This document shows, piece by piece, positions 21,306 to 37,778 of a stretch of 64,000 bases of DNA. The position numbers and the translations under genes were made by a program. How positions within the stretch are numbered: the stretch's first letter is position 1; each line of letters opens with the position of its first letter. The notes beneath the pieces are model-generated. The model did no database searches and was not told where the DNA came from. It saw nothing but the letters and a program-made list of their open reading frames with translations. This DNA comes from Mycobacteriales bacterium. Its GTDB lineage: Bacteria; Actinomycetota; Actinomycetes; JAFAQI01. The stretch is from the NCBI GenBank assembly GCA_035695045.1, contig DASSEX010000081.1, forward strand, positions 9,881-73,880, read 5' to 3'.

Positions 21306-22158
21306 CAGGAGGCCGGCCGGCTCGGGTCATCCGCCAGGCCGCTCTCCAGCCGATCGGACGGCGTTCGCCGCAGGGCTGACGGAGGCCGTCCCGCCACCCG
21401 CGCAGCGCCTCCCGGCGCGCGGCGCCCTGCGGCACGCGGGCGAGCGTCAGCACGAACCAGACCGCGAGGTAGACGGCGGCGACCGGCGCGGGCAGGTTGC
21501 GGCGGGCGAGCCACACCCGGTTGCGCCCCTGCATCCGGAAGTACGCCGGGTCACGCCCCGGCTGCTTCGCATCGTGCCAGCACACCAGCGCACCGGCGTA
21601 ACGCACCCGATGCCCTCCGTCGATGACGCGCCACGCGAGCTCGACGCCTTCGTGCTGGTAGAAGTACACCTCCGGCCAGCCACCGGCCGCCGCGAGCACG
21701 TCGCGCCGCGCGACGACCGCTCCCTCCCACAGCGCCGCGAGGTCACTGTCCCGGCCCGCGTCGCCGACGCGCAGCCGCGGTACGAAGGAGCGCGGCGTCT
21801 CCCCCGTCACCGGGTCGACCGGACGCAGCTGCACCACTCCGATGTCCGGGTTCGCGTCCAAGAGCTCCGCGGCCCTCGCGAGCACGTCGTCGTCGGCCAG
21901 GGCAGCGTCGTCATCGAGGAAGAACAACAGCTCGCCACTGACATGTGGCACACCCGCGTTGCGGCCGGCCGGGATGCCGACGTTCTGGGGAAGCCCGACA
22001 CCGCGCACGTCCGGAGGCAGGCCACTGGGCTGCCAACCGTTGCCGACGACGACGACGTCGAGAGAGACGCCACGTTGGGACAGGATCGAGCGCAGCGCCC
22101 GCTCCAACAGCTCCGGTCGGTTGCCCATGGTGAGGACGACGCAACCGATGCCGGTCAT
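21298..22158 (-). CDS. glycosyltransferase family 2 (short, GT-A)
   Basis: 287 aa from the internal ATG (MTGIGCVVLTMGNRPELL...), with an FLDDDA DXD motif. Its 3' end overlaps the convergent lipoprotein gene by 8 nt. The ORF-track extension to 22704 is discounted. Confidence 0.75.
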   Translation of the reverse strand: MTGIGCVVLTMGNRPELLERALRSILSQRGVSLDVVVVGNGWQPSGLPPDVRGVGLPQNVGIPAGRNAGVPHVSGELLFFLDDDAALADDDVLARAAELLDANPDIGVVQLRPVDPVTGETPRSFVPRLRVGDAGRDSDLAALWEGAVVARRDVLAAAGGWPEVYFYQHEGVELAWRVIDGGHRVRYAGALVCWHDAKQPGRDPAYFRMQGRNRVWLARRNLPAPVAAVYLAVWFVLTLARVPQGAARREALRGWRDGLRQPCGERRPIGWRAAWRMTRAGRPPVI

Positions 22159-22946
22159 CGCAGTCGCGCTGACGTCAGGATCGTCAGCAGATGCAGCAGG
22201 CAGACGAGGACGCCGACGACGGCGAGGACGACGGCAAGCACCTGATGACCGACGGTCGAACCCGCGACCAGGTCGACGACGGCGACCGCCACGAGGACCA
22301 CCGACAGGTCCCAGGCGAGCAAGAGACGGTTGATCGGGACGGCGTACGCGAGACGGCGTAGCCGGCGGATCCCGGAGACCTGCGGCGCGACAGCCGTCGG
22401 CTCGAAACGAGGCAGCCCGACATAGGCACGCGCCACGTGCACGAGGTCGGTCTCCGCCCTGCTGACCAGGACGAGCACGGCGCCGAGCAGCCCGAGTGTC
22501 GTCCAGCCGCCGATCGACCCGAGGCCACCGTCGGCATGCACCCCGACCGCGCACACGACGGCTGCGTCGGTCGTGTAGTGGCCGAAGCGGTCGAGGTAGA
22601 TCCCGCGCGGACTGCTCCACTGACGCCAGCGCGCGAGTTCTCCGTCCGAACAGTCGCAGAGCAGCTGCAGCTGGATGAGTGCGACCGCGACGAAGTCGGA
22701 CCACGCCGACGGCACGGTGAGCACCAGCGCCGCGGCCAGCCCGCTGACCACCATCAGCCAGGTGAGGCCGTCCGGCGTTGCCCTGGTGGGGATCAGCGCC
22801 CGGGTGAAGTGCAGCGACACCCGGCGCATGTAGAGCCGGCCCATCCAGTGCTCGCGACTCACGTCCTCGACGAGCGCCGGCGGATGAACGATCGCGCGCA
22901 GCTCCTCGAGCGAGGGCCGCGTGCGCTCAGCCGAAGGCGGCGACAT
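22155..22946 (-). CDS. CDP-alcohol phosphatidyltransferase family protein
   Basis: 263 aa polytopic membrane protein carrying the CDP-OH_P_transf motif DCSDGELARWRQWSSPRGIYLDRFGHYTTDA (D-x2-DG-x2-AR...G-x3-D-x3-D). Confidence 0.8.
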   Translation of the reverse strand: MSPPSAERTRPSLEELRAIVHPPALVEDVSREHWMGRLYMRRVSLHFTRALIPTRATPDGLTWLMVVSGLAAALVLTVPSAWSDFVAVALIQLQLLCDCSDGELARWRQWSSPRGIYLDRFGHYTTDAAVVCAVGVHADGGLGSIGGWTTLGLLGAVLVLVSRAETDLVHVARAYVGLPRFEPTAVAPQVSGIRRLRRLAYAVPINRLLLAWDLSVVLVAVAVVDLVAGSTVGHQVLAVVLAVVGVLVCLLHLLTILTSARLR

Positions 22947-23964
22947 AGTCGTCGACCCGCTTGCGGACGTCCGCCTCCGGCAGGTCGAGGTGCTCGAGGA
23001 TCGTGAACCGTTCGGGCCGCGTCGTCGGGGCGTGCACCACAGCGGCGGTGAACTGCTCGCTGGTGAGCGTGATGTCTCCCGGCAGCCTCGGCAGCTGGTG
23101 CCGCCGCAGGCACTCGTCGATCAGCTGCTGCTGCCTCTGGTCGCCGCGTAGGAACGCACAGAAGAGCGCGCCGACACCGGCGAGCTCGCCGTGGTTGCTC
23201 ACGCCCGGGAAGAGCTGGTCGATGGCATGGAGGATCTCGTGGTCGCCGCCGCTGCAGGGCCGGCTGCTGCCGGCGACCGCCATTGCCAGGCCGGACAGGA
23301 TCAGCGCCTCGGCGAGGGTCACCAGGAAGTCGGCCGACTCGATCGAGTCGGGCCTGAAGACGACGGCGTCCGCTGCCGCGCGCGCCATGGCCGCGGCGAG
23401 CCCGTCGATCTGCTCGCCGCGCTCGTCGGCCGCGAGCTGCCAGTCGGACAGAGCGGACAGGTTGCTGACCACGTCGCCGATGCCGGACCGCACCATCCGC
23501 TCGGGCGCGCGCTGCACGTAGTCGAGGTCGACGAACACGGCGAGCGGGATGTGCACGCCGTACGAGCCCTTCCGTCCTTCGTGCTCCAGCGACGCGACCG
23601 GTGACGCGATGCCGTCGTGCGACAGGTTGGTCGCGACCGCGACCATCGGCAGGCCGGTCAGGCTCGCGGTGTACTTCGCGACGTCGAGCGTCCGCCCGCC
23701 GCCGATGCCGACGACGGCGTCGTACGACGACTGACGCAGGCGCACCGCGAGCTCACGGGCGGAGTCGACGGATGCTTCCTCCACCGGCAGGACATCGGCG
23801 TCGGTGAGGGTCGGCGCGAGCACCTCCGCGATGGCCTCGCCCTGGCCGGGACCGACGAGGACGGCGACCCTCCCCCCGGCGGAGATGCCACCCTCGGCGA
23901 GCAGCCGGCGAAGTCCCGTGATCGCGCCGCGCCGCACGTCGACCGTGAGCGGCGACGCGATCAT
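22927..23964 (-). CDS. iron-containing alcohol dehydrogenase superfamily; sn-glycerol-1-phosphate dehydrogenase (AraM/EgsA)-like or glycerol dehydrogenase-like
   Basis: 346 aa from the internal ATG (MIASPLTVDV...). Contains the GIGGGRTLDVAKYTA glycine-rich NAD(P) loop and a DHE/HxxxH metal-site region. Its size and motifs fit G1PDH better than 3-dehydroquinate synthase. Confidence 0.6.
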   Translation of the reverse strand: MIASPLTVDVRRGAITGLRRLLAEGGISAGGRVAVLVGPGQGEAIAEVLAPTLTDADVLPVEEASVDSARELAVRLRQSSYDAVVGIGGGRTLDVAKYTASLTGLPMVAVATNLSHDGIASPVASLEHEGRKGSYGVHIPLAVFVDLDYVQRAPERMVRSGIGDVVSNLSALSDWQLAADERGEQIDGLAAAMARAAADAVVFRPDSIESADFLVTLAEALILSGLAMAVAGSSRPCSGGDHEILHAIDQLFPGVSNHGELAGVGALFCAFLRGDQRQQQLIDECLRRHQLPRLPGDITLTSEQFTAAVVHAPTTRPERFTILEHLDLPEADVRKRVDDYVAAFG

Positions 23965-23969
23965 CCGGG

Positions 23970-24701
23970 CTAGTAGTGGCACGCGATCTCCCGCGCCTTC
24001 GCGAGGTCGTCGTGGTTGTCGACCTCGACCCACGCGACCGTCCCGATCGGCGCGACATCGACCAGGCCGCCGCGGTCGGCGTACTCCTGGTAGCCGTCCT
24101 CGTAGTAGAGGCCGGTGTCCCGGCGCCAGGTCGCCTCGAGCGCCTCCGCGAGCCCGTCGGCTGCGGCAGGGGCGATCCGGGTCACGCCGATGTACTCCCC
24201 CGCAACCTCCGCCGGGTCGAGCTCTTTGTTGATGCGGGTCATCGTCCCGGCCGGACCGAGGATGATCTTCATCTCCTCCTCGGCGAGCGGCTTCACGTCG
24301 TCCATCGCGAGGAGGATCTCCCGTGGCTCCGTGGCGAGCAGAGTCTTCTCCACGGAATCGGGATGCACGGTGTCGCCGTTGCACAACAGCACACCCTCGG
24401 CGAAGAACTCACGCGCCAGCCACAGCGAGTAGGCGTTGTTCCACACCGTCGCCCTGTCGTTGAAGACGGTCCGCAGCCGGACACCGTGCCGTCGCTGCAG
24501 CGCCTCGACGCGGTTGTCGATCTGGTGCGCCGCGAAGCCGGTGACCACGACCACATCGGTCAGGCCCACCTGCGCGAGGTTGTGCAACGCGATGTCGAGG
24601 ATCGACGTGTCGTCGGCGACCGACAGGAGCGTCTTCGGAAGGTCGTCCGTCAACGGGGAGAGCCGGCGACCCGCGCCCGCGGCGAGAACGACTCCGATCA
24701 T
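23970..24701 (-). CDS. sugar/polyol-phosphate nucleotidyltransferase (GlmU/RmlA-like N-terminal fold; LicC/IPCT-like cytidylyltransferase)
   Basis: 243 aa. Contains the MIGVVLAAGAGRRLSPLTDDLPKTLL GxGxR(L) nucleotide loop. This is not the small TagD (HxGH) class. Confidence 0.75.
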   Translation of the reverse strand: MIGVVLAAGAGRRLSPLTDDLPKTLLSVADDTSILDIALHNLAQVGLTDVVVVTGFAAHQIDNRVEALQRRHGVRLRTVFNDRATVWNNAYSLWLAREFFAEGVLLCNGDTVHPDSVEKTLLATEPREILLAMDDVKPLAEEEMKIILGPAGTMTRINKELDPAEVAGEYIGVTRIAPAAADGLAEALEATWRRDTGLYYEDGYQEYADRGGLVDVAPIGTVAWVEVDNHDDLAKAREIACHY

Positions 24702-27682
24702 GCGCCAACCTCATCACACGCGGCCCTCAGACCTGCGCACCGCTCGACGAGGAAGTCGGCGACGGCGGCCGCTGCGCGTCCTTGGTCGTACTCCGCGAAC
24801 CGCACCCGAGCAGCGGCCCGCAACGATGCGCTGTCGTGCCGCGTTCGCTCGAGATCGGCGAGCAAGGCCGCCAGCGCCTCGTCGTCGTGCACGACCGGGC
24901 CGGGGGCGGCCTCGGCGATGTCGACGTACGCCGGCGGCGCCGTTCCGTGCACCGTGCGCCCGATCTCGCAGCGGCAGCCGACGAGGATGACCGGCCGGTC
25001 GCGGAGCACGATGTCGAACATCGCCGGGTGATGGTCGGTGACGAGGACGTCGGCGGCAAGCAGCAACTGCTCGAGCGGCCCGTCGCCGAGACGGAGAACG
25101 CGCGCGCCTCCGAACGCGACCGCGGAGCCGACCTCGGCCGGCCGGTCGCAGTCCCGCAGGTGAAGCACGGCGAGGTCCTCGGGGCGCACCCCGACCGCCG
25201 CCCGGGCGGCGTGGACCGACGCCGCGTCGTCGTGGACCAGAGCGTCGTTACGCGGGAGTCCTACCGGCAACGTCTGCGCCGTGTGCCGGAACGCGCGCGC
25301 CAGCACGTCCTCGTCGTACGGCGCCCGCACGCACACCGCGTCCCACCGATCGACACTGCGGCGCAGCGCAAGCCGGTCGTCGTTGCTCGCCCGGCGCATC
25401 TGCGGGGCGTCGAAGCCGACCCACCGCAACGGGGTGAACCTCGGGATGTGCACGTACACGGTGCTCGGCGACTTCACCGTCTCGCGCGGGAATCCGCTGT
25501 CGTCGACCCATGCCTCCGCTCGAGCGAGAGCAGAGTAGTAGGCCCAGGAGCCATGCCTGACGAGGCGCACGTCCGTGGGGAACACGGTGGTGTCGCCGGC
25601 GTGCACCCAGATCGGCTCGATGGGCAAACGCCTTCGGCGGAGCTCGTCGAAGACGGCACGCGGGCTTCCGCCGAACGCTGCACCGTCCTCGCTCTGGAAC
25701 ACCACCGACCGCGGCCGGGTGCGGGCCGGCCGAAGGGCGCGAGCCAACACCTCCTCACGCACCCGCGGGTGCGCGGGGTGCCGGGCCAACGTCGCCGCCC
25801 GCCGGGCGGTCTGCCGGGCGCGTCGCAGACCGGGCGACCGGAGAACCCGCTGACCCGCCTTGTGTACCGCCTGTGCACTGCGTGTGCCCGGAACCCACTC
25901 GAGAGCGAGGTCCCCCTGGGGCGTGACGAGGGTCTGGAGGCGGTCGGCAGCGAACCGGCCGGCGAGGGGTCGACCGGACAGATGCAGCCCGTCCCAGTCG
26001 GCATTCCGGACGGTCAACCGGGACTCGTTCACCTCGCTGCCGACGGACAGCTGCAGCCGCAGGTCCCAGACCCGATCGACGAAGCCGAGCGCCCTGATGG
26101 TCTGTCTGGTGTCGACGGTTGCAGTCCACTCGATGTCGCCGGTGTCCGGTTCACGTCGCAGGTCGAGGACCGGCACAGAGCCCGAGCGACGGCCGCGCCG
26201 GGGGCGGGCGATGAGGCGGGCGGCGACAGGAGCCTCCGACGGGATCCGGCCGAGCTGGTTGAGCAGTCGCCCACGCAGCTCTAGCCGATGACCGTGCACC
26301 TGCAGCTGCGTCACCTCGTCATAGAGGTCGAGGGAGGGCAGGGCCAGCTCCTGGAACCCGAGCTCTGTGACGTCGAAGAACGGCGCATCCGCGGCGGCTT
26401 CCAGTCCACGTTCGTCCCAGAACACCCGACCGGACCGCTCCAGGAGCCTCGTCGAGAGCTTGCGTCCGTGCGCCACGTAGTCGATGGCGCCGAACAGGCC
26501 GGCCTCGTCGTCATGCAGGAGGTACCACCCGACGAGTGCCTGGAGAGGATGGACGCGGGCGAACGCGGCGGCATCCAGCGTTTCCAGATAGCTCCTTGCG
26601 ACTCGGCCGAACTCCTCGCGGAACGCCGAGTCTCGGAACGGCAGATCCGGCAGGTAGAGCACGAGGTCGTGACGCAAGAACTTCAGGTCCTTGTGGAGCT
26701 TCAGCTGCGTTGCACCATGCGCCCGGAACTGCTCATCGAGCAGGCGATGCACGCGGACGCGGTCCTCGAAGTTGCGCAGCTCGGATCTCCGGTTGGAGAT
26801 CGAGGGGGTGTCGAGCGACTCGACCACGTTCCATCGGTAGACGACGTCCGGCACCAAGGTGAACCGGCGTGCGAGGAGGTAGACCTCCCCCGAGAAGAGC
26901 AGGTCTTCGTAGTGGACGCCTTCCGGGAAGCGCAGCGCATTGCGTTGGAGGAAGTCACGTCGGTAGCACTTGTTGGTGGACAAGGTGTCGTACAGCAGGT
27001 CGGGGTTCTCGAGGATCGACTCGTACGTCGTCCGTCTCGTGTAGAGCCACCGGTACCACGGCGACACTGCGCCGCCCTTGCTCAGGTGGACCCTGTGGCA
27101 GAGCCCAGACGAGAAGTCCGCCTCGTCTGCCTCCGCGGCGGCGACGAGAGTCGCGCAGGCAGTTCGGGGAAGCTCGTCGTCACTGTCCAGGAACATGACG
27201 TAGCGTCCGCGAGCGATGTCGATCCCGGCGTTGCGGGGACGGCTGCAGCCACCGCTGTTCTCGGCGAGCCGCTCGACCCGAATGCGGGGGTCGGCCGCGG
27301 CCAGCTTCGCAGTTACGGTCGGCGTGGCGTCAGTGCTGGCGTCGTCGATGATCACGATCTCGAGGTCGGTCATCGTCTGGCGGCGGACCGACCGGACGGC
27401 CGTGTCGAGACGGTCCGCGTCGTTGTAGACGATCACGACCACGCTCAGGAGCGGCTCGGTCGCCCTCGAGGAACGGGACGATCGGACACGGACAGGAAGA
27501 ATTCGGGCGCTCCTTAGGTTCTTCGGGTGACAGTCTCGTTGCTCCGTTGGGACTGAAGCAGGCCCCTGCCCCCGCCGAAGGAAAAGATATGCGACTCCGA
27601 CTTGTGGCCGCCGCGATCGCCGTGGCGCTTCCGACCATGGGCCTCGTGGCCACCACTGCTCCCTCTGCCGGCGCGGCGACAT
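24698..27682 (-). CDS. bifunctional GT2 / TagF-like glycerophosphotransferase fusion, second paralog (TagF-like active-site motif degenerate)
   Basis: 994 aa as the ATG-initiated ORF. The GT2 region starts near residue 78 (LLSVVVIVYNDADRL...[11 protein letters not shown]...FLDSDD), so the true start may be an internal GTG near 27440. The C-terminal TagF-like region keeps VTDHHPAMFDI but reads YVHIPRFTPLRWVGFD where paralog 1 has the WHG motif. Confidence 0.75.
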   Translation of the reverse strand: MSPRRQREQWWPRGPWSEAPRRSRRPQVGVAYLFLRRGQGPASVPTEQRDCHPKNLRSARILPVRVRSSRSSRATEPLLSVVVIVYNDADRLDTAVRSVRRQTMTDLEIVIIDDASTDATPTVTAKLAAADPRIRVERLAENSGGCSRPRNAGIDIARGRYVMFLDSDDELPRTACATLVAAAEADEADFSSGLCHRVHLSKGGAVSPWYRWLYTRRTTYESILENPDLLYDTLSTNKCYRRDFLQRNALRFPEGVHYEDLLFSGEVYLLARRFTLVPDVVYRWNVVESLDTPSISNRRSELRNFEDRVRVHRLLDEQFRAHGATQLKLHKDLKFLRHDLVLYLPDLPFRDSAFREEFGRVARSYLETLDAAAFARVHPLQALVGWYLLHDDEAGLFGAIDYVAHGRKLSTRLLERSGRVFWDERGLEAAADAPFFDVTELGFQELALPSLDLYDEVTQLQVHGHRLELRGRLLNQLGRIPSEAPVAARLIARPRRGRRSGSVPVLDLRREPDTGDIEWTATVDTRQTIRALGFVDRVWDLRLQLSVGSEVNESRLTVRNADWDGLHLSGRPLAGRFAADRLQTLVTPQGDLALEWVPGTRSAQAVHKAGQRVLRSPGLRRARQTARRAATLARHPAHPRVREEVLARALRPARTRPRSVVFQSEDGAAFGGSPRAVFDELRRRRLPIEPIWVHAGDTTVFPTDVRLVRHGSWAYYSALARAEAWVDDSGFPRETVKSPSTVYVHIPRFTPLRWVGFDAPQMRRASNDDRLALRRSVDRWDAVCVRAPYDEDVLARAFRHTAQTLPVGLPRNDALVHDDAASVHAARAAVGVRPEDLAVLHLRDCDRPAEVGSAVAFGGARVLRLGDGPLEQLLLAADVLVTDHHPAMFDIVLRDRPVILVGCRCEIGRTVHGTAPPAYVDIAEAAPGPVVHDDEALAALLADLERTRHDSASLRAAARVRFAEYDQGRAAAAVADFLVERCAGLRAACDEVGA

Positions 27683-28578
27683 CGCCCGTGCTCTTCGGTC
27701 TGACAGACAAGTGGAAGGACCAGATCAGCGCCGACAACTCGCAACTGCATCTGACCGCCGGCGTGGTCGACCTGTTCCAGCAGTGGGTCGCCACCAGCAC
27801 GAAGCGCACGACGGTGAAGAACTGGATGAGCTGGGTCCGGGGCGCCAGCGGCGCGCCCGGTGGCGCTCCCATGCTGACCCTTCAGCCACCCACGTCCGCC
27901 TCTTTGAGCTCGATCAATGCCGGGCACTACGACGCGCAACTGCGCGCGTGGGCGCACACGATTGCGTCCTGGGGCCACCCGATGTTCGTGCGGCTGTTCC
28001 CGGAGATGAATCAGAAGTCGCACAGCTACTCGCCCGGCTACGGAAGCAACACCGCCGCACAGTTCCGGACGGCGTGGCGTCACGTGGTCACACTGATGCG
28101 CAACGCCGGCGCTCACAACATTGCCTTCATCTGGTGCCCGTACCGCGTCTACTCGACCTCGACGCCACTGAAGTCGGTGTGGCCCGGTGCTTCGTATGTC
28201 AACTGGGTCGGATTCGACGCCTACAACTACGACGACTCACACCATGCCTTCGCGTGGCCGTACGCACTGTTCTCGCCCACCGTCAAGGCGATCCGCAGCA
28301 TCGCCCCGTACAAGCCGCTCGTCATCGCCGAAGTTGGCACAAGGCCCGAGAGCCAGAAGCCGACCTGGATCTCCCGCTCCGTAACGGCCGCCCAGTCGGT
28401 CGGCGCGAAGGCCATGCTCTGGTTTGACGAGAGCGCGGAGTACAACTGGCGGCTCGATTCGGCGCCAAGTCCCTCGGTGATCAACGCAGCCAGGACAGCA
28501 CTGCACTCGTCCGCGATCACCTACGCCGGCAAGTGGTCGATCGCCCGGATCGACCAGCTCGTCTCGACGGGCAAGTAG
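27589..28578 (+). CDS. secreted glycoside hydrolase, GH26-like (beta-mannanase/endoglycanase fold)
   Basis: About 329 aa from MRLRL, with signal peptide MRLRLVAAAIAVALPTMGLVATTAPSAGAA. Candidate catalytic motifs are FVRLFPEMN (acid/base Glu) and VIAEVG (nucleophile Glu). Upstream RBS is GAAGGAAAAG. Confidence 0.6.
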   Translation: MRLRLVAAAIAVALPTMGLVATTAPSAGAATSPVLFGLTDKWKDQISADNSQLHLTAGVVDLFQQWVATSTKRTTVKNWMSWVRGASGAPGGAPMLTLQPPTSASLSSINAGHYDAQLRAWAHTIASWGHPMFVRLFPEMNQKSHSYSPGYGSNTAAQFRTAWRHVVTLMRNAGAHNIAFIWCPYRVYSTSTPLKSVWPGASYVNWVGFDAYNYDDSHHAFAWPYALFSPTVKAIRSIAPYKPLVIAEVGTRPESQKPTWISRSVTAAQSVGAKAMLWFDESAEYNWRLDSAPSPSVINAARTALHSSAITYAGKWSIARIDQLVSTGK

Positions 28579-28583
28579 GCGGA

Positions 28584-31415
28584 CTAACCGTTCGGCTGGG
28601 AGGCGGCGATCGTCGCGAGCGCCGCCTCCAGCAGCCGCTCCTGCCGCTCGTACTCCGCCCGGTTGTTCGCGGCCAGCGCAGCCTGGGCGCGCGCCTGGGC
28701 CTGCTGAGCGGCGGCGACAGCCTGGGCCAGTCGGGCGGACGGCGTCGACCCGTTGCCGACGGCGTCGGCCAGGGCGAGGTCGAGTGTCGGCTCGAACGCG
28801 ATCGTGCCACCGCGCGCCACGACGACGCGACGCAGGATCGGGAAGGACGTGCCGCCCGCGGCGCGGGAGTAGATCGGTTCGACCCAGATGACGTCACCGT
28901 CGACCGGGATCGGCTGCAGGTTGCCCAGGACGACTCGGGAGCCGCCGCCTCGCAACAGTGTCAGCTGCTGGGCCACGCCGGGATCCGACTCGATGTCGTT
29001 GCGGATCTGGCCCGGTCCCTCGACGCCCGCCGGAAGGGTCTGCAGCTGCATCCGGCCGTAGCCAGGCCCCGGATCCGAGCCGACCGAGAGGTAGGCCGTC
29101 ATGGTGCGTCCGTTCAGAGAAACGAACGACGTCGTGAGTGCCAGCTGCGTGCCGCCGGCGCCGGGAAGGCGTAGGTAGTAGGACGGCTGCGCGGCCGACC
29201 CCTTCATCGTCGGGTCGGACGGCACCAGCCAGAAGTCACTGCCGTTGTAGAACGAGCGCGGGTCGGTGACGTGGTAGCGCGCAAGCATCGTGCGCTGCAC
29301 GTTGAACAGGTCGCGCGGGTAGCGCAGATGCGCACGTACGTCGGAGGGGAGGGCAGCCGCCGGCCGGACCAGTCCCGGGAACGCCTTCATCCACGTCGCA
29401 AGAACGGGGTCGCGCCCGAGGCCGGTCTCGGTGTCCCACCGGTAGAGGTGCACGGTGCCGTCGTACGCGTCGACCGTCGCCTTCACCGAGTTGCGGATGT
29501 AGTTGATGCTCTGGTTCGACTGCGCCGACGACGAGCCGTTCGTGACATAGGTGTCCGACGCCGCCGCGGCAAGGTTCTGCTGCTGCGAGTAGGGCACCGA
29601 GTTGGCCGTGGTGTAACCGTCGACCACCCACAGCACCCGCCCGCCGGCTACGACGGGGTACGCCGCCCCGTCGACGGTGAGCCAGGGGGCGACCTGCTGC
29701 ACGCGCTGCCGCGGGTCGCGGATAGAGAGCAGGCGCGAATACTTGTTGATGCCCTTGGAGAACAGGATGTTCTTGTCGCCGAGCTGCCAGGCGAAGGCGA
29801 GGCGTCGCCAGAACGAGCCGATCCGGACACCGCCGAGTCCGTGGTAGGTGTTGGTGACCTGGCCGCTTCCGGTGGCCGGCCGGTCGAACTCGTGCGGCCG
29901 CGCACCGGGCGGAGCGCCGACGATGGAGTACGACGGCGAGCTCTGCCCGAAGTAGATGCGCGGTTCGTAGCTGCCGAGGCCTCCCGTGGGGGGGATGTCC
30001 GACTCCACGAAGTTGGGTGTTCCGCCGCGGAGATCATCGACAGGCGCAGCGACAACGCCGTAGCCATGCGTGTAGACGAGGTGCAGGTTGCTCCAGGTGC
30101 GCTGACCACTGGGCAGTCCGGACGGGTTCAGCTCACGCACAGCCAGCGCGACGTCACGCGTGGCACCACCCAGCGGGTAGCGGTCCGTGTCCAGTGTCGA
30201 CTTGAACCCGTAGAAGGCACGGACCTGCTGCAGCTGGGTGAACGTCGGCGACATCTGGTTGGGGTCGAGCAGCTGCGGCTGTGCCGCGGCCACCGCCGCC
30301 GACACCGCCGCTCCGGACATCTGCTGCGGAGACGCGGCCGCGCCCGTGGTGACGGTGTCCGACCCGATGCCGTAGCCGTATCTGGTCGCCACCAGGTCGC
30401 GGGCGATGGACAGCGCTTCGGCGTCCTGGGCGTCCGGCTTGACGTGATAGGTCTGCACGACCCAGGGCACGACCCCACCGAGCACCACGCCGCTGAGCGC
30501 CAGCGTCACGACCCCCGCGGCCGTCACCTTCCAGCTGCGGAAGGCGGCGTTGATGAAGAACAGCACCGCGAGGATGACGGCGATGACCAGCAGGATCAGC
30601 TTCGAAGGCAGCACGGCATGGATGTCGGTGTACGACGGGCCGGTGACGACGCCGCGGTTGGAGACCGCTGTCGCCAGGCGGTCGAGCCAGTAGCCGAACG
30701 CCTTCAGCAGTGCGAGAGCGCCGAGCAGCAGGCACAGGTGGACGCGCATCTCGGCGCGCAGCCGCGGCCGTTGACCACGTGGTCGAAAGCCGCCGTTGAG
30801 GTAACCCATCACCCCCAGGAGCACCAGGCACAGCAGCACGATGGTGAACACCGCACCGAGCGCGAAGCGATGCATCGGGTAGACGAACACGTAGTAGGAG
30901 TAGTCGCGGTGGAACTGCGGGTCCTTGACTCCGAACGACGTCGCGTTGCGCCATTGCAGCCACAGCGGCCACTGCCGGGCTGCCCGGGACCCCAGCCATA
31001 TGCCGGCGACCAGGGCTGCGACGACCGTCACCAGGTGCCGGCGCGGGTAGACCAGCCGCCCGTAGCGAAGGCGCACCGAGAACCGCGTCGTCGGGGCGTC
31101 GCCGCCGTACGGTGTGTGCCGGTGCAGCGCGAAGAGGTTCACCGCGACGGCCAACGCGGTCGCCCCGCCGAAGACGGCGAACATCACGATCTGCGTCAGC
31201 AGCCGCCGTGAGTAGACCGACGACTCGTGCAACGAGCCGAACCACAGCCAGTTGGTGTAGAGCGAAACCACCGTGTTGACGACGGCGTACAGGACCGCGA
31301 CGACGACGACGAGCACGAAGAGCGGGCGGACCTTGCGCAACGTCGCCCGGATCGGGGCCTTGGGCCGGACCGGCGCCTCCACCTCACGGCTCTCGGATGG
31401 TGCGGCGGTCCTCAC
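28584..31415 (-). CDS. UPF0182 family large membrane protein
   Basis: 943 aa. The N-terminal TM bundle carries the family hallmark YTNWLWFGSLHESSVYSRRLLTQIVMF, followed by a large Gly/Tyr/Trp-rich extracytoplasmic domain. From memory it matches the mycobacterial Rv3193c-type UPF0182 proteins. Confidence 0.7.
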   Translation of the reverse strand: MRTAAPSESREVEAPVRPKAPIRATLRKVRPLFVLVVVVAVLYAVVNTVVSLYTNWLWFGSLHESSVYSRRLLTQIVMFAVFGGATALAVAVNLFALHRHTPYGGDAPTTRFSVRLRYGRLVYPRRHLVTVVAALVAGIWLGSRAARQWPLWLQWRNATSFGVKDPQFHRDYSYYVFVYPMHRFALGAVFTIVLLCLVLLGVMGYLNGGFRPRGQRPRLRAEMRVHLCLLLGALALLKAFGYWLDRLATAVSNRGVVTGPSYTDIHAVLPSKLILLVIAVILAVLFFINAAFRSWKVTAAGVVTLALSGVVLGGVVPWVVQTYHVKPDAQDAEALSIARDLVATRYGYGIGSDTVTTGAAASPQQMSGAAVSAAVAAAQPQLLDPNQMSPTFTQLQQVRAFYGFKSTLDTDRYPLGGATRDVALAVRELNPSGLPSGQRTWSNLHLVYTHGYGVVAAPVDDLRGGTPNFVESDIPPTGGLGSYEPRIYFGQSSPSYSIVGAPPGARPHEFDRPATGSGQVTNTYHGLGGVRIGSFWRRLAFAWQLGDKNILFSKGINKYSRLLSIRDPRQRVQQVAPWLTVDGAAYPVVAGGRVLWVVDGYTTANSVPYSQQQNLAAAASDTYVTNGSSSAQSNQSINYIRNSVKATVDAYDGTVHLYRWDTETGLGRDPVLATWMKAFPGLVRPAAALPSDVRAHLRYPRDLFNVQRTMLARYHVTDPRSFYNGSDFWLVPSDPTMKGSAAQPSYYLRLPGAGGTQLALTTSFVSLNGRTMTAYLSVGSDPGPGYGRMQLQTLPAGVEGPGQIRNDIESDPGVAQQLTLLRGGGSRVVLGNLQPIPVDGDVIWVEPIYSRAAGGTSFPILRRVVVARGGTIAFEPTLDLALADAVGNGSTPSARLAQAVAAAQQAQARAQAALAANNRAEYERQERLLEAALATIAASQPNG

Positions 31416-32179
31416 GGCTTGTCCTCTTCCTCGTCGTCGTCCACGTCGGTGTCCGCGCGATAGTGCTCGAGCACGTCGTCCATCGGGCCGTCCGCGACCT
31501 TGCGCCCGCCCTTGAGGTAGATGCCGCGTTCACAGAACCGCCGCAGGTCGTTCTCGTTGTGCGACACCATCACGACCGTGCGACCTTGGCTGAGGAGGTA
31601 CTCCATCACACGGTAGGACTTGCGTTTGAACCGTCGGTCACCGACGGCCATGACCTCGTCGACCAGCAGGATCGGCTCCTCCAGCCGGGTGACGACCGAG
31701 AAGCCGAGTCGCGACTTCATGCCGCTCGAATAGTGTCGGAGCGGCGTGTTCATGAAGCCTTCCAGCTCCGCCCACTTGACGATGCGGTTGTACTTCGCGT
31801 CGATCTGCCGCCGCGAGAACCCGTGCAGGGATCCGAGCAGGTAGACGTTGTCACGGCCGGTCAGCTCCGCGTTGAAACCCGCGTTGAGCTCGAGCATGGC
31901 GCCGACGCCACCGTTGACCCACACCTCGCCCTCGTCCGGCATCAACACGCCGGCGATCAACCGGAGGAGCGTGCTCTTGCCGGATCCGTTGCGGCCGATG
32001 AGTCCGACGGCCTCCCCCTGACGGACGCTGAACGAGACGTTCCTCAGCGCCCAGAACGTGTTCGGAGCGGTGATCGTGGCCTTACGGACGACGAAGTCCT
32101 GCAGCTTGAGCCGCCGCCGCCGGGTGACGGCGAAGTTGATCCCGACGTTCGACACGTTGATGACGTCCGGCACGCTCAC
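31412..32179 (-). CDS. tagH: ABC transporter ATP-binding protein, TagH/Wzt-like (glycopolymer export)
   Basis: 255 aa from the GTG overlapping the permease stop (GTGA). Contains Walker A GRNGSGKST, the ABC signature YSSGMKSRL and Walker B ILLVDE. Confidence 0.85.
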   Translation of the reverse strand: MSVPDVINVSNVGINFAVTRRRRLKLQDFVVRKATITAPNTFWALRNVSFSVRQGEAVGLIGRNGSGKSTLLRLIAGVLMPDEGEVWVNGGVGAMLELNAGFNAELTGRDNVYLLGSLHGFSRRQIDAKYNRIVKWAELEGFMNTPLRHYSSGMKSRLGFSVVTRLEEPILLVDEVMAVGDRRFKRKSYRVMEYLLSQGRTVVMVSHNENDLRRFCERGIYLKGGRKVADGPMDDVLEHYRADTDVDDDEEEDKP

Positions 32180-33048
32180 AGCTCCTTGAGCACGTGCCGC
32201 TCGAGCGTGATGAACGTCCACCAGCCGACGACGAAGAACAGGATCGCACCGACGCACGACACGAGGAACTGCGTCAGAAGGGTCCCCGCCGGGATCATGT
32301 TCGGGTACCAGACCGCGCGGTTGAGCTGCAGGATGCCGACGAGCGGGTTGAGCTGGTAGATCAGCGCCAACTTTCCGTGCAGCCGGCTCGACGGGTAGAG
32401 CACGGGCGACAGGTAGAACATCACCCGCAGCACCACGCGCAGGATCTTGGACACGTCGCGCAACAGCGCGTTCAGCGACGCGAGCATCAGTCCGAGGCCG
32501 ACGACGAGAAGCACCTCGACGAGGAACGCGAGCGGCAGCCACACGATGTAGCGACTGGGAAACTGGCCGTACAGCACACCCACGAGAAACACCACGGGGA
32601 GGCTGAGGAGGTACTCCGCCCCCTGCTCGCCGACGGACGCGAGCGGATAGATCTCCCTCGGCAACGTGACGGTGCGCACCAGGCCGGCGTTGCTGCGCAG
32701 CGAACCGGCCGCCTGCGACAGCGTGCCGTTGAAGAACAGCCACGGCATGATCGCCGAGGCGATGAACAGCGGGTAGTGCGGCATGCCGAACCGAGCGACC
32801 CGCCCGAAGATCAGCCAGTAGACGGCGACGAGCAGCGTCGGCTCGAGAAGCGACCAGGCGTAGCCCAGGAAGGACTCGCGGTACTGCACCTTGAGACCGC
32901 GCGCGATGAGCTCATAGAGGACGTTGGAGCGCCGCCGGATCTGGTTGATCCGCGCGACCGGGCTGCCACCCAGCAGCCGACCACGTTCGTAGTCCCACCA
33001 GACGCGCCACTCGTTGAGGAGCCCGGGCGGCTGCTCGACCTGCGTCAA
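32176..33048 (-). CDS. tagG: ABC-2 type transporter permease, TagG/Wzm-like
   Basis: 290 aa with 6 TM helices; ABC-2 family layout, immediately upstream of the ATPase. Confidence 0.85.
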   Translation of the reverse strand: MTQVEQPPGLLNEWRVWWDYERGRLLGGSPVARINQIRRRSNVLYELIARGLKVQYRESFLGYAWSLLEPTLLVAVYWLIFGRVARFGMPHYPLFIASAIMPWLFFNGTLSQAAGSLRSNAGLVRTVTLPREIYPLASVGEQGAEYLLSLPVVFLVGVLYGQFPSRYIVWLPLAFLVEVLLVVGLGLMLASLNALLRDVSKILRVVLRVMFYLSPVLYPSSRLHGKLALIYQLNPLVGILQLNRAVWYPNMIPAGTLLTQFLVSCVGAILFFVVGWWTFITLERHVLKEL

Positions 33049-33104
33049 CGGGTGTTCCTCACGATGGGCGTGCGGCCAGAAGGCCGCTGGGATGCACGGA
33101 AAGA

Positions 33105-34292
33105 CTACCGTTCGGCCGCGTGCCGCCCCGGTAGCGCAAGCACGTCCGGACCGAGGTCCGCGAGGCTGCGGCAGCCCGCCAGAGCCATCGTCAGGTCGAG
33201 CTCTGCGAGCAGGCTGCGCAGGACGTGACGCACGCCGTCCTCGCCACCGAGCCCCAGGCCGTAGACGTACGGCCGCCCGATGAGCACCGCCTGGGCCCCG
33301 AGGGCGAGCGCCTTCACGACGTCGCTGCCGGTGCGCACGCCCGAGTCGAGCAGAACGGCCATCCGGTCACCGACGGCCGACACGACCCCCGGCAGCGCGT
33401 CGAGCGACGCGATCTCGCCGTCGATCTGGCGACCGCCGTGGTTGCTCACGATGACGCCGTCCATGCCCGCATCGGCCGCGCGGCGAGCGTCGTCGGGGTG
33501 CAGCACGCCCTTCAGCACGATCGGGCCGTCCCACTGCTCGCGGAGCCAGACGAGGTCGTCCCAGCTCTTCGTCGGGTCGCCGAACATCGTCAGCCACCTC
33601 AACACTGAGGCGCCGGGGTCCTCCTCGGGCGACTTCTCCAGGCCGGCCAGGAAGGCGGGGTCCGACTCGTAGTTGGCGAGCCCCATCCGCTGCAGGAACG
33701 GCAGGTACGCCGCGCTGAGATCACGGGGCCGCCACGCGAGGATGAAGGTGTCGAGGGTGACGACGAGTGCGCTGAACCCGGCCCCTTTCGCCCGGCCGAT
33801 GAACGAGGACGCCACGTCGCGGTCGCGCGGCCAGTAGAGCTGGAACCATCGGGGCGAGTCACCCCCGGCCTCGGCCACCTCCTCCATCCGGTACGACGAC
33901 ACCGTCGACAGCACCATCGGGATCCGCAGGCTCGCCGCGGCTCGGGCGACGGCGAGCTCGGCCTCGTCGTGCACGATTCCCTGCACACCGACCGGCGCGA
34001 GAGCGAGCGGCGCAGGGAAGGTCGTCCCGAGAACCGTCGTGGACAGGTCACGGGTCGAGACGTCGCGCAGGAAGCGCGGGACGATCCGCCATCGGTCGAA
34101 CGCGGCGCGGTTCTCCCGAGCCGTCCCCTCGGTGCCCGCACTGCCGGCGACGTAGCCGTAGGGCTCCGGCGCGAAACGCTCGCGCGCGAGCTCCTCCAGC
34201 TGCCCCGGCTCGCACGGCAGCGACGGAAGGACGCCGCCGAGGCCGTTGAGGTAGATCTCGTTCTGGTAGTTCGCGAACGGCTGCTCAGTCAC
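33105..34292 (-). CDS. FMN-dependent alpha-hydroxy-acid dehydrogenase/oxidase (lactate 2-monooxygenase-like)
   Basis: 395 aa. Contains the FMN_dh motifs VLSTVSS...KGVLHPDDARRAADAGMDGVIVSNHGGRQ. Confidence 0.85.
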   Translation of the reverse strand: MTEQPFANYQNEIYLNGLGGVLPSLPCEPGQLEELARERFAPEPYGYVAGSAGTEGTARENRAAFDRWRIVPRFLRDVSTRDLSTTVLGTTFPAPLALAPVGVQGIVHDEAELAVARAAASLRIPMVLSTVSSYRMEEVAEAGGDSPRWFQLYWPRDRDVASSFIGRAKGAGFSALVVTLDTFILAWRPRDLSAAYLPFLQRMGLANYESDPAFLAGLEKSPEEDPGASVLRWLTMFGDPTKSWDDLVWLREQWDGPIVLKGVLHPDDARRAADAGMDGVIVSNHGGRQIDGEIASLDALPGVVSAVGDRMAVLLDSGVRTGSDVVKALALGAQAVLIGRPYVYGLGLGGEDGVRHVLRSLLAELDLTMALAGCRSLADLGPDVLALPGRHAAER

Positions 34293-34375
34293 CGGCGGAG
34301 CATCGCATGTCCCCGGGGGCCGCCGCCGCGTACGCAGCGCGTCGGCGCCATCGGCCGCCCCCGTAGAGTGCTCGC

Positions 34376-36121
34376 GTGCGCAAGGTCCTCATCGCCAACC
34401 GCGGCGAGATCGCGGTGCGCGTCATCCGCGCCTGCCGCGACGCCGGCCTCGGCAGCGTCGCCATCTACGCAGACCCCGACCTGGACGCAGTCCACGCCCG
34501 CCTCGCCGACGAGGCCTATGCACTCGGCGGCGCGACGCCGGGCGAGACCTACCTCGACATCGCGAAGATCCTCGACGTGGCCCGGCGTTCGGGAGCGGAC
34601 GCGGTCCATCCCGGCTACGGCTTCCTCGCCGAGAACGCGGCGTTCGCGAGCGCGGTCATCGACGCCGGGCTCATCTGGATCGGACCCCCGCCCGAGGCGA
34701 TCGAGGCACTCGGCGACAAGGTCAAGGCGCGGCACATCGCGCAGGATGTCGGCGCTCCCCTCGCTCCCGGCACCGCTGACCCCGTCGACGGTGTCGACGA
34801 GGTGCTCGCCTTCGTCGACGAGCACGGACTGCCGGTCGCGATCAAAGCCGCCTTCGGTGGCGGCGGACGCGGCCTGAAGGTCGCGCGCGAGCGCGACGAG
34901 ATTCCCGAGCTCTACGACAGCGCGGTCCGTGAAGCCGTCGCTGCGTTCGGCCGGGGTGAGTGCTTCGTCGAGCGCTACCTCGATCGCCCACGTCACGTCG
35001 AGACGCAGATCATCGCCGACCAGCACGGCACCGTCGTCGTTGTCGGCACCCGCGACTGCTCGCTGCAGCGCCGGCACCAGAAGGTCGTGGAGGAAGCACC
35101 TGCGCCCTTCCTCACCGACGAGCAGCTCCAGCGGCTCTACGAGTCGTCGAAAGCGATCGCCCGGGCCGCGGGCTATGTCGGCGCCGGCACGTGCGAGTTC
35201 CTCGTCAGCCAGGACGGCGTCGTGTCCTTCCTCGAGGTCAACACACGGCTGCAGGTCGAGCACCCCGTCACGGAAGAGACCAGCGGGGTCGATCTCGTCC
35301 GCGCGCAGTTCGCCATCGCCGACGGGCAGCGACTGAAGGGCGTCGACCCGGCGCCGCGTGGCCACTCGATCGAGTTCCGTATCAACGCCGAGGATCCGGG
35401 CCGTAACTTCCTGCCCGCTCCGGGGCAGATCACGTCACTGCGACTGCCGCACGGGCCGGGCGTGCGCGTCGACGCCGGTTACGTCGAGGGCGACGTCGTA
35501 CCCGGCGGCTTCGACTCGCTGCTCGCGAAGCTCGTCGTCACCGGATCCTCACGGCAGCAGGCGATCGAGCGCTCGCGTCGCGCGCTGGCCGAGTTCGAGG
35601 TCGGCGGCATGCCGACGCTGCTGCCGTTCCACCGCGCCGTACTGGACGATCCCGCGTTCATCAGCGAGCCGTTCTCGATTCACACGAGGTGGATCGAGAC
35701 CGAGTGGCAAGGGGGCATCGAGCCCTACACGCCTACTGCGGACCCCGCCGACCCTGCGGCCGAGCGCGAGCTGATCACCGTCGAGGTCGGCGGGCGCCGG
35801 CTCGAGGTCGTGCTGCCTGACGGGCTCGCACGCTCGGGCGGTACGTCGTCCGGCCGCAAGCCGCCGTCGCACGCACGCAAGGGCGGCGGCGCCTCCGCGG
35901 TGTCCGGCGACACCCTCACGGCTCCGATGCAGGGAACCATCGTCAAGGTCGCCGTCGAGGACGGGCAGCAGGTGGGCGAGGGCGATCTCGTCGTCGTCCT
36001 CGAGGCGATGAAGATGGAACAGCCGATCGCCGCGCACAAGGCCGGAACGATCAGCGGTCTGACCGCCGAGGTCGGCGCCCCGGTGCAGTCGGGCTCGCCG
36101 ATCTGCACCATCGCCGACTAA
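34376..36121 (+). CDS. accA3: acetyl/propionyl-CoA carboxylase alpha subunit (biotin carboxylase + BCCP)
   Basis: 581 aa. Starts [19 protein letters not shown] and carries the ATP-grasp biotin carboxylase core. The C-terminal biotinyl domain has the EAMKME biotinylation motif. Confidence 0.95.
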
Positions 36122-36540: not shown

Positions 36541-36574
36541 CCCAACCCCTGACAGCTTTCTCGGAGGACACGGC

Positions 36575-37753: not shown

Positions 37754-37778
37754 CCCGGCTGTCCACGCCACGCGCGTT

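What the first reader, a model, noticed from the sequence alone, without database searches (positions are those of the whole stretch)
27589..33048. UPF0182 giant membrane protein placed between the TagG/TagH exporter and a secreted GH26-like hydrolase
UPF0182 proteins (about 950-1000 aa, N-terminal TM bundle plus a huge extracytoplasmic domain) have no assigned function. Here the gene overlaps the tagH start (ATGA) and lies 5 nt from the convergent hydrolase gene, within the polymer export block. This context suggests a role in polymer translocation, length control or attachment.
Basis: partly seen in the sequence, partly recalled or inferred. Interest (0 to 1): 0.6.

Follow-up and report, generated by a model that had tools for sequence, protein, structure and literature searches.

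The report
UPF0182 membrane protein fused into ABC-2 exporter operon
A normal-looking member of the poorly understood UPF0182 membrane-protein family sits in one operon with a sugar-polymer-type ABC exporter; this pairing is kept in one group of uncultured soil actinobacteria but is absent from the rest of the family, so it is a modest lead and not a general clue to the family's function.

Summary
28584-31415(-) encodes a full-length UPF0182 protein (PF03699, E=4e-242). Its GTG start overlaps the stop of a TagH-like ATPase gene (GTGA, not ATGA). Its stop lies 5 nt from a convergent, genuine GH26 gene. Family-wide, UPF0182 does not sit with polysaccharide genes. In 54 of 59 informative metagenome loci, and in most genome loci, it lies directly downstream of a PDZ/Lon_C protease gene. 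None of 80 metagenome loci has a TagG-like permease. A 2026 preprint links the family to FtsH/YccA membrane-protein homeostasis. However, in the window's own subclade the trio of ABC-2 permease, ATPase and UPF0182 stays adjacent down to 48% UPF0182 identity, in two arrangements (co-directional and divergent). Meanwhile the polymer-synthesis genes and the GH26 gene come and go. My best reading is a family-typical UPF0182 scaffold whose partner or client in this clade is the ABC-2 exporter. It does not look like a polymerase, ligase or length ruler. I could not determine whether these genomes also carry a canonical copy. Interest is moderate: a new contextual variant of a known family.

The parts
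32176..33048 (-). ABC-2 type permease (TagG/Wzm-like), 290 aa; first gene of the conserved trio
   Evidence: PF01061 E=1.7e-16. NCBIfam gives only sub-threshold hits to KpsM and galactan Wzm. Orthologues at 83-51% identity lie next to UPF0182 in L001, L003-6, L030, L112, L111 and L113.
31412..32173 (-). ABC transporter ATPase (TagH/Wzt-like, nucleotide-binding domain only, 253 aa)
   Evidence: PF00005 E=7.7e-22. The best NCBIfam hits are TagH equivalogs, at 182 and 172 bits, below their cut-offs of 538 and 320. The GTG start lies 2 nt after the TagG stop.
31412..31415 (-). GTGA overlap of the tagH-like stop (TGA) with the UPF0182 start (GTG). A GAGGA Shine-Dalgarno-like run lies about 9-13 nt upstream
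   Evidence: Read directly from the sequence. The same 4-nt overlap occurs in L001, L003-L006 and L030.
28584..31415 (-). UPF0182 family membrane protein, 943 aa
   Evidence: PF03699 E=4.3e-242, full length. AF2 model pLDDT 84.8, pTM 0.83. 147 positions conserved at 90% or more across all family groups are retained.
30447..31352 (-). UPF0182 membrane domain, aa 22-323: seven transmembrane helices, N-terminus cytoplasmic
   Evidence: AF2 helices at 22-61, 65-100, 113-146, 172-207, 221-251, 262-292 and 295-322. Seven hydrophobic segments and the K/R-rich N-terminus and loops 98-125 and 205-225. 7 of the 8 subclade-specific conserved substitutions lie here.
28746..30368 (-). UPF0182 extracytoplasmic alpha/beta domain, aa 350-890
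   Evidence: AF2 model. No PDB fold match at E<0.001. No PDB sequence match.
28602..28742 (-). UPF0182 C-terminal helical hairpin, aa 892-938 (coiled-coil-like)
   Evidence: AF2 helices 892-915 and 919-938. It corresponds to the C-terminal coiled-coil studied in C. diphtheriae DIP0733 (PMC6123952, title and abstract).
27589..28578 (+). Secreted GH26 glycoside hydrolase (CtLic26A-like), convergent with UPF0182; a variable neighbour
   Evidence: PF02156 28.4 bits against a cut-off of 20.2. PDB 2bv9 E=2.9e-16, with the 'fpEmn' and 'viaEvg' motifs aligned to the catalytic Glu motifs. Present in L001 (71-74% identity). Absent from L003-6, L030, L111 and L113.
24698..27682 (-). GT2 + CDP-glycerol glycerophosphotransferase (TagF-like) fusion. 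The true start is probably downstream of 27682. Context gene, not conserved with the trio
   Evidence: PF00535 E=6e-32 and PF04464 E=7e-43. No full-length orthologue of this fusion, only partial GT2-domain matches (45-47% over ~320-370 of 994 aa), at the corresponding position in L001 or L003.
22155..24701 (-). NTP transferase (23970-24701), Fe-ADH_2/glycerol-1-phosphate-dehydrogenase-like gene (22927-23964) and CDP-alcohol phosphatidyltransferase-like gene (22155 to about 22950): activated polyol-phosphate supply genes
   Evidence: Pfam hits. Start of the Fe-ADH_2 gene. In L003-L006 these genes directly follow UPF0182, with an overlap.
33105..34292 (-). FMN-dependent alpha-hydroxy-acid dehydrogenase/oxidase gene directly upstream of tagG. 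Conserved only within the close clade
   Evidence: PF01070 E=7e-133. 88-93% identical in L001 and L003. Replaced by birA in L112 and L114.

Best explanation
The 943-aa protein is an intact, family-typical UPF0182 protein. It has seven transmembrane helices with the N-terminus inside, a roughly 540-residue extracytoplasmic alpha/beta domain, and a C-terminal helical hairpin.

In one subclade of uncultured soil actinobacteria, its gene has left the family's usual position downstream of a PDZ/Lon_C protease gene. It has become a stable three-gene module with an ABC-2 (TagGH/Wzm-Wzt-type) exporter. In the window it is translationally coupled to the ATPase gene and co-transcribed with wall-polymer genes.

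Most likely mechanism (inferred): it does what the family is proposed to do elsewhere. It acts as a membrane-embedded scaffold, predicted in a preprint to form a tetrameric extracytoplasmic dome that works with YccA and FtsH to control the stability or turnover of polytopic membrane machines. In this clade the ABC-2 exporter would be its main partner or client. It is unlikely to be a catalytic polymerase, ligase or chain-length ruler.

Shown here: family membership, topology, operon structure, the conserved trio, and the family-wide PDZ/Lon_C synteny.
Inferred: the functional or physical coupling to the exporter, and the link to FtsH/YccA, which is taken from other species.
For: - Family membership: Pfam full-length match. 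147 family-conserved positions are retained (and the invariant list).
- Architecture: confident AF2 model with 7 TM helices plus an ectodomain. Hydropathy and the positive-inside rule agree.
- Operon: GTGA overlap with tagH and an SD-like GAGGA. The same overlap is seen in L001, L003-6 and L030. In L003-6 the downstream NTP-transferase gene also overlaps.
- Conserved trio: UPF0182 lies next to the orthologous TagG/TagH at 79, 77, 68, 58, 49 and 48% UPF0182 identity. It is co-directional in L001, L003-6, L030 and L112, and divergent in L111 and L113. All other neighbours differ.
- Phylogeny: NJ bootstrap gives the window clade 100, L111+L113 100, TagGH-linked plus patatin-linked 99, and all TagGH-linked 65.
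- Subclade signature: 7 of 8 subclade-specific conserved substitutions lie in the membrane domain, where a transporter would make contact.
- Proteolysis theme across the family: a PDZ/Lon_C gene lies directly upstream in 54 of 59 informative metagenome loci and in most genome loci.
- Literature: knock-down phenotypes correlate with ftsH and yccA in three actinobacteria (10.1101/2025.11.14.688347). MSMEG_1959 was mutated in all three wild-type ethidium-evolved lineages but not in the lfrA pump deletion strain (10.64898/2026.01.04.697598).
Against: - The adjacency may have arisen only once. Monophyly of the TagGH-linked genes has 65% bootstrap support, so it counts as one evolutionary event, kept for an unknown time.
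- No direct evidence of a physical interaction exists.
- The FtsH/YccA link rests on one preprint, on correlations and on AF3 predictions, all in other species. No yccA, ftsH or small partner gene is in the window.
- TagGH and Wzm-Wzt exporters studied so far need no such partner (established knowledge).
- The TM-substitution enrichment is post hoc and rests on 8 sites.
- It is not known whether these genomes also carry a canonical copy.
Confidence: 0.4

Rival explanations
1. Neutral placement. This is the lineage's ordinary housekeeping UPF0182 gene. It landed beside an ABC-2 exporter operon once and has stayed there by inertia among fairly related lineages. Co-transcription has no functional meaning.
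For: - No TagG-like gene in any of 80 sampled family loci, and none in 16 of the 17 genome loci (the exception, L010, is the window clade itself).
- Other clade-B members sit in miscellaneous contexts, such as patatin/GFO, ArsR or ferritin-like genes. This shows that the gene moves around once it leaves the PDZ/Lon_C position.
- In the window, L030, L112 and L114 the trio stays in the same broad birA/accD region, so those lineages share regional synteny anyway.
- Among 13 named NCBI MAG proteins checked by accession, no assembly shows a second copy. This fits one housekeeping copy per genome.
Against: - Adjacency survives a change from co-directional to divergent arrangement.
- It also survives loss of every other shared neighbour, at 48-49% UPF0182 identity and 51-52% TagG identity.
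- The tight 4-nt coupling is kept in several species-level lineages.
- The subclade-specific conserved substitutions concentrate in the membrane domain.
Confidence: 0.3
2. UPF0182 is here a dedicated extracytoplasmic component of the wall-polymer pathway. It would be a conduit or chamber above the exporter, a chain-length regulator, or a factor that hands the polymer to the wall.
For: - The conserved trio and operon structure.
- The large extracytoplasmic domain sits directly after TM7.
- The predicted tetrameric dome in the preprint superficially recalls the bell-shaped Wzz/PCP oligomers and the MlaD/Mce rings that sit on ABC permeases (my own knowledge).
- Conserved acidic and histidine residues (D165, H169, D171, D264) lie in loops on the outer face.
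Against: - Polymer-synthesis genes are not conserved with the trio. L113 has no glycosyltransferase or TagF-like gene within 10 kb, and L111 has a sulfotransferase instead.
- There is no LCP ligase in the window.
- Foldseek finds no similarity to PCP, GT-C, ligase or Mce structures.
- The protein keeps all family-conserved positions, although most family members have no exporter nearby.
- ABC-transporter-dependent pathways normally set chain length by terminal capping or a Wzt carbohydrate-binding domain, not by a PCP-like partner (established knowledge).
Confidence: 0.15
3. Specialised paralogue. These genomes also hold a canonical PDZ/Lon_C-linked UPF0182 gene, and the exporter-linked gene is a duplicated, neofunctionalised copy.
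For: - The split between PDZ-linked clade A and clade B has 100% bootstrap support. MAGs labelled Mycobacteriales fall on both sides, while a Nonomuraea sequence nests in clade A.
- One metagenome (JGI 3300044718) yields both an exporter-linked gene (L113) and a clade-B gene near uvrD (L029) on long contigs.
Against: - No second UPF0182 and no PDZ/Lon_C protein from the assemblies of HET6818464 or HET7310533 appears in the top-120 lists.
- No NCBI MAG in the lists has two copies.
- M. smegmatis has a single copy.
- Clade-B loci L027-L029 lie within about 9 kb of a UvrD helicase gene, as the canonical locus does in M. tuberculosis (my own knowledge of Rv3193c-Rv3198c). This suggests positional orthology.
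- Tetranucleotide composition cannot tell whether L113 and L029 come from the same genome.
Confidence: 0.15

Closest known systems
UPF0182 family (Pfam PF03699): M. smegmatis MSMEG_1959, M. tuberculosis Rv3193c, C. glutamicum cg0896, C. diphtheriae DIP0733
   Same: Full-length Pfam match. Seven TM helices plus a large extracytoplasmic domain and a C-terminal helical or coiled-coil tail. All family-conserved positions are retained (architecture as described).
   Different: It is not next to the PDZ/Lon_C and Zincin_2 protease genes that accompany most family members. Instead it is embedded in an ABC-2 exporter operon. It is at most 53% identical to any sequence outside its clade. It scores below the NCBIfam subfamily cut-offs. 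It is slightly shorter, at 943 aa against about 960-990.
TagGH / Wzm-Wzt ABC-2 exporters of teichoic acids, O-antigens and mycobacterial galactan
   Same: The two upstream genes have the same domain pair (PF01061 + PF00005) and the same order. Their best NCBIfam similarities are to TagH, galactan Wzt and KpsM/Wzm. In the window they sit among TagF-like and GT2 genes.
   Different: All equivalog cut-offs are missed. The ATPase has no C-terminal carbohydrate-binding or membrane extension. No described TagGH or Wzm-Wzt system includes a UPF0182 partner (my own knowledge; nothing found in the literature searches).
FtsH regulators in the membrane: YccA (Bax-inhibitor-1 family) and the HflK/C cage
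   Same: A proposed functional analogy only. UPF0182 knock-down phenotypes track with ftsH and yccA, and a dome-like oligomer is predicted.
   Different: There is no sequence or fold relationship. The preprint's own modelling did not support FtsH binding inside the dome. None of these partner genes is in the window.
Clostridium thermocellum Lic26A (GH26 lichenase, PDB 2bv9), for the convergent hydrolase
   Same: Alignment at E=2.9e-16 across the catalytic domain, with both catalytic glutamate motifs aligned.
   Different: Low identity. Its substrate here is unknown. It is not a conserved part of the module.

Membership tests
UPF0182 (PF03699) | Full-length match to the family profile above the gathering score | tested here: met
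   806 bits against a cut-off of 27, profile positions 2-770 of 770.
UPF0182 (PF03699) | Seven N-terminal TM helices followed by a large extracytoplasmic domain | tested here: met
   AF2 model, pLDDT 84.8. Seven hydrophobic segments and the positive-inside pattern.
UPF0182 (PF03699) | Retention of family-invariant residues | tested here: met
   About 130 invariant columns in A1 include the window protein. 147 positions are conserved at 90% or more in all four groups.
UPF0182 (PF03699) | NCBIfam subfamily models PRK00068, PRK12438 and PRK02509 above their curated cut-offs | tested here: not met
   813, 690 and 470 bits against cut-offs of 995, 1254 and 949. It is a family member but lies outside these curated subfamilies.
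UPF0182 (PF03699) | Typical (not defining) synteny: immediately downstream of a PDZ/Lon_C protease gene, near a Zincin_2 gene | tested here: not met
   No PDZ/Lon_C or Zincin_2 homologue anywhere in the 64-kb window. The synteny is present in 54 of 59 informative loci elsewhere.
FtsH/YccA-associated membrane-protein homeostasis module (as proposed for MSMEG_1959) | Interaction or shared phenotype with YccA, FtsH and a small TM protein | not testable with these tools
   Known only from the preprint, for other species. No such genes are in the window.
TagGH teichoic-acid exporter | ABC-2 permease plus ABC ATPase gene pair | tested here: met
   PF01061 and PF00005 on adjacent genes.
TagGH teichoic-acid exporter | Equivalog-level similarity to TagH or TagG | tested here: not met
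   TagH models score 182 and 172 bits against cut-offs of 538 and 320. The permease hits only KpsM and Wzm, far below their cut-offs. 'TagGH-like' is a description, not an assignment.
TagGH teichoic-acid exporter | Association with polyol-phosphate polymer synthesis genes | tested here: inconclusive
   Present in the window, L001 and L003 (TagF-like, NTP transferase, G1PDH-like). Absent around the orthologous exporter in L111 and L113.
Glycoside hydrolase family 26 | Profile match above the gathering score, and the two catalytic glutamates | tested here: met
   28.4 bits against 20.2. The 2bv9 alignment at E=2.9e-16 aligns E in 'fpEmn' and E in 'viaEvg'.

The most novel reading that the evidence does not exclude
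The exporter-linked UPF0182 genes form a functionally distinct subfamily. Their membrane domain docks on an ABC-2 (TagG/Wzm-type) exporter, and their extracytoplasmic dome forms part of, or polices, the export machine. One version of this idea is that the protein gates FtsH-dependent removal of exporters jammed with lipid-linked polymer. If so, this would be the first concrete client or partner for UPF0182 and a new accessory class for ABC-2 exporters.
Probability: 0.15. Interest if true: 0.75.

Novelty: new variant of a known kind. Interest (0 to 1): 0.4.

Why it matters
UPF0182 is conserved across Actinobacteria, including M. tuberculosis and C. diphtheriae. Its molecular role is still uncertain and currently rests on one preprint.

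Two context signals from this work could make the question more testable:
1. Family-wide, the gene is almost always coupled to a PDZ/Lon_C protease gene. This independently fits a proteolysis or quality-control role.
2. In one subclade the gene has swapped that neighbour for an ABC-2 exporter and kept the new neighbour through rearrangements. This nominates a specific transporter as a candidate partner or client.

If the second signal is real, TagG/Wzm-type exporters would be the first defined clients. The link would also matter for how wall-polymer export is safeguarded. If it is not real, the locus is just an ordinary housekeeping gene in an unusual position.

Tried and rejected
- Second-copy test by accession proximity. 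I compared 13 NCBI protein accessions of UPF0182 hits, and the accessions of PDZ/Lon_C hits, with HET6818464 and HET7310533. None came from the same assemblies. This is inconclusive because only the top 120 hits are listed and MAGs are incomplete.
- Genome scan. The peptide patterns were specific to the window protein and returned only 17 loci. It cannot exclude a canonical paralogue in the same MAG.
- Tetranucleotide and GC comparison, to decide whether L113 and L029 (same metagenome) come from one genome. All high-GC actinobacterial loci correlate at 0.92-1.00, so this is uninformative.
- Promoter and terminator scan of 27300-34500. Nothing above the shuffled expectation.
- My interim view after one search was that the linkage is a one-off confined to relatives at 68% identity or more. 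I rejected it after the TagG-based search uncovered L112, L111 and L113.
- Concatenated TagG+UPF0182 structure prediction. Not attempted, because such sequences are not accepted and only about 6 paired sequences exist.

Full report
**1. What is in the sequence**

The window is high-GC (0.67-0.72) actinobacterial chromosome. The UPF0182 protein is identical to HET6818464.1 from a MAG labelled 'Mycobacteriales bacterium', on a 119-kb contig.

On the minus strand, in reading order, the genes are:
- an FMN-dependent dehydrogenase gene (33105-34292);
- an ABC-2 permease gene (32176-33048, PF01061);
- an ABC ATPase gene (31412-32173, 253 aa);
- the 943-aa UPF0182 gene (28584-31415; PF03699 E=4.3e-242, full profile length).

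The ATPase start is a GTG 2 nt after the permease stop. The UPF0182 GTG start overlaps the ATPase TGA stop as GTGA, with a GAGGA run just upstream. The UPF0182 stop lies exactly 5 nt from the stop of a convergent gene (27589-28578, plus strand).

That convergent gene encodes a real GH26 enzyme. Pfam scores it above the gathering cut-off. It aligns to the C. thermocellum lichenase Lic26A at E=2.9e-16, with both catalytic glutamate motifs aligned.

Beyond it lie further wall-polymer genes:
- a GT2+TagF-like fusion (24698-27682);
- an NTP transferase;
- a glycerol-1-phosphate-dehydrogenase-like Fe-ADH_2 gene;
- a CDP-alcohol-transferase-like gene;
- a GT2 gene.

These genes are interleaved with core genes such as accD5, birA, accA3, purK, purH and sucCD.

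**2. The protein itself**

An AlphaFold2 model built on 55 homologues is confident (pLDDT 84.8, pTM 0.83). It shows:
- seven long transmembrane helices (aa 22-322);
- an alpha/beta extracytoplasmic domain (about aa 350-890);
- a C-terminal helical hairpin (aa 892-938).

Hydropathy and the positive-inside rule place the N-terminus in the cytoplasm and the large domain outside.

The protein keeps every family-invariant column of the alignment. It also keeps 147 positions that are at least 90% conserved across all subgroups. It is therefore an intact family member, not a degenerate one.

**3. What is known about the family**

A 2026 preprint (10.1101/2025.11.14.688347) reports the following:
- UPF0182 is universally conserved in Actinobacteria.
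- Knock-down of the single M. smegmatis copy (MSMEG_1959) gives phenotypes that correlate with those of ftsH (r=0.80), yccA (r=0.67) and a small membrane protein (r=0.87).
- The same correlations hold in C. glutamicum and B. breve.
- AlphaFold3 predicts a tetrameric periplasmic dome that binds YccA.

The authors propose a role in FtsH-linked membrane-protein homeostasis.

A second preprint (10.64898/2026.01.04.697598) found MSMEG_1959 mutated in all three wild-type lineages evolved on ethidium bromide. It was not mutated in a strain lacking the LfrA pump.

DIP0733 of C. diphtheriae, whose C-terminal coiled-coil matters for host interaction, belongs to the same family (named as such).

'No assigned function' is therefore no longer accurate, although the evidence is still indirect.

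**4. Family-wide gene context**

Relatives at 53% identity or less from other Mycobacteriales MAGs show the order Zincin_2 ... PDZ/Lon_C - (sometimes a histidine kinase) - UPF0182.

- Genome-collection loci: of 17 loci, 11 have this context (PDZ/Lon_C upstream; Zincin_2 also seen in 10), 1 is the window clade itself (L010), 1 (L023) is a 5'-truncated match with no upstream DNA, and 4 have unrelated neighbours with no wall-polymer genes.
- Metagenome loci: in 80 loci found with family-conserved peptide patterns, a PDZ/Lon_C gene lies co-directionally just upstream in 60 overall.
- Among the 59 metagenome loci with at least 1.5 kb of upstream DNA, 54 have it. The median distance between the two tblastn matches is 232 bp.
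- None of the 80 has a TagG-like permease.

The dominant synteny instead points towards proteolysis, in line with the preprint. The preprint does not mention this synteny.

**5. The window's own subclade is different**

Close relatives keep TagG-TagH-UPF0182 with the same 4-nt overlap: P0002 (79%), P0003 and P0004 (77%), P0007 (68%). In the P0004 lineage the NTP-transferase gene follows, again with an overlap, and there is no GH26 gene.

Searching with the permease rather than with UPF0182 revealed more distant carriers:
- L112: TagG 59%, UPF0182 58%. Order is birA | TagG-TagH-UPF0182.
- L111: TagG 52%, UPF0182 49%. UPF0182 is divergent from a sulfotransferase-TagG-TagH operon.
- L113: TagG 51%, UPF0182 48%. 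UPF0182 is divergent from TagG-TagH across 47 bp. No glycosyltransferase or TagF-like gene lies within 10 kb.

A tblastn search of all 43 window genes against these loci shows that L111 and L113 share only the trio with the window.

Bootstrapped neighbour-joining trees give:

| Grouping | Bootstrap support |
|---|---|
| PDZ-linked clade A versus the rest | 100% |
| Exporter-linked plus a 'patatin-linked' sister group | 99% |
| All exporter-linked genes together | 65% |

The linkage is therefore probably a single origin that has since been retained through substantial divergence and one change of gene orientation. The polymer-synthesis genes and the GH26 hydrolase have meanwhile come and gone.

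Eight positions are conserved within the exporter-linked genes but differ from both other groups. Seven of them lie in the membrane domain. This is suggestive, but it is post hoc.

**6. Interpretation**

The conserved unit is ABC-2 permease + ATPase + UPF0182. It is not 'UPF0182 plus a teichoic-acid pathway'.

The protein is biochemically a standard UPF0182, and most family members work without a nearby exporter. Its core activity is therefore unlikely to be polymer-specific.

My best reading (confidence about 0.4) is that it plays the family's general role as a membrane scaffold controlling the stability or turnover of polytopic membrane machines. In this clade the ABC-2 exporter would be its principal partner or client.

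Rival readings:
- Neutral retention of a chance adjacency (about 0.3).
- A cross-cutting question, not exclusive of the readings above: the exporter-linked gene may be a specialised paralogue alongside a canonical copy (about 0.15).

I could not settle the paralogue question. No second copy and no PDZ/Lon_C protein from the two relevant NCBI assemblies appears in the top-hit lists. These lists are truncated, MAGs are incomplete, and composition analysis was uninformative.

**7. Verdict**

The locus is a new contextual variant of a known but still poorly understood family. Interest is moderate (0.4). It offers a candidate partner for UPF0182, but only in uncultured lineages and only from synteny.

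Noticed in passing
L007-L009, L012, L014-L021, L025-L026, L031-L110 (family loci outside the window): UPF0182 genes lie almost always directly downstream of, and co-directional with, a PDZ + Lon_C serine-protease gene. This holds in 54 of 59 informative metagenome loci, with a median of 232 bp between the matches. A Zincin_2 metalloprotease gene usually lies a few kb upstream. The preprint that links UPF0182 to FtsH does not mention this synteny.
   Followed up: yes
window 36122-37850 (ORF 36575-37753, +): A 1.7-kb segment is absent from the closest relative L001, where the accA3 and lipoamide-dehydrogenase-like genes abut. It encodes a 392-aa protein with no Pfam hit. The protein has a signal peptide and a C-terminal LPFTG motif followed by a hydrophobic stretch and an RRRP tail, so it is a likely sortase-anchored surface protein. 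A 28-nt inverted repeat (37775-37839) follows it.
   Followed up: partly
window 5298-8132 (+) and 24698-27682 (-): Two paralogous GT2 + TagF-like (CDP-glycerol glycerophosphotransferase) fusion proteins, 49% identical over the N-terminal GT2-containing ~370 aa (33% over a further ~300 aa). They lie 17 kb apart and are separated by core metabolic genes. The wall-polymer genes are scattered through a housekeeping region and do not form one island.
   Followed up: partly
window 22155-24701 (-): A trio of NTP transferase, Fe-ADH_2 (glycerol-1-phosphate-dehydrogenase-like) and CDP-alcohol-phosphatidyltransferase-like genes, conserved in L001 and L003. It suggests an unusual CDP-activated polyol-phosphate, possibly sn-glycerol-1-phosphate-based, as a polymer building block.
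   Followed up: no
window 11319-12608 (+); L111 5735-7384; L113 15816-16688; L029 16127-17218: Sulfotransferase genes recur near the exporter/UPF0182 loci. In L111 one is the first gene of the TagG-TagH operon. In L113, sulfate-assimilation genes (PAPS reductase, sulfite reductase) are also nearby. The exported product may be sulfated in some lineages.
   Followed up: no
UPF0182 residues M78, L151, R216, L234, T249, G309, V316, Q834 (window 28584-31415, -): These positions are conserved among exporter-linked UPF0182 proteins but differ from the residue conserved in both the PDZ-linked clade and the other non-PDZ clade. Seven of the eight fall in the transmembrane domain.
   Followed up: partly
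L027/L028 and L024 (sister group of the window clade): The closest UPF0182 genes that are not exporter-linked (889 aa) are followed, with a 4-nt overlap, by a patatin-like phospholipase gene and a GFO/IDH/MocA oxidoreductase gene. This is a second lineage-specific operon partner for UPF0182.
   Followed up: no
window 59358-60953 (-): A DUF6350 membrane protein gene sits between the purH/folD-like and sucCD genes. From my own knowledge this family includes mycobacterial PerM. It confirms that the window is conserved core chromosome.
   Followed up: no
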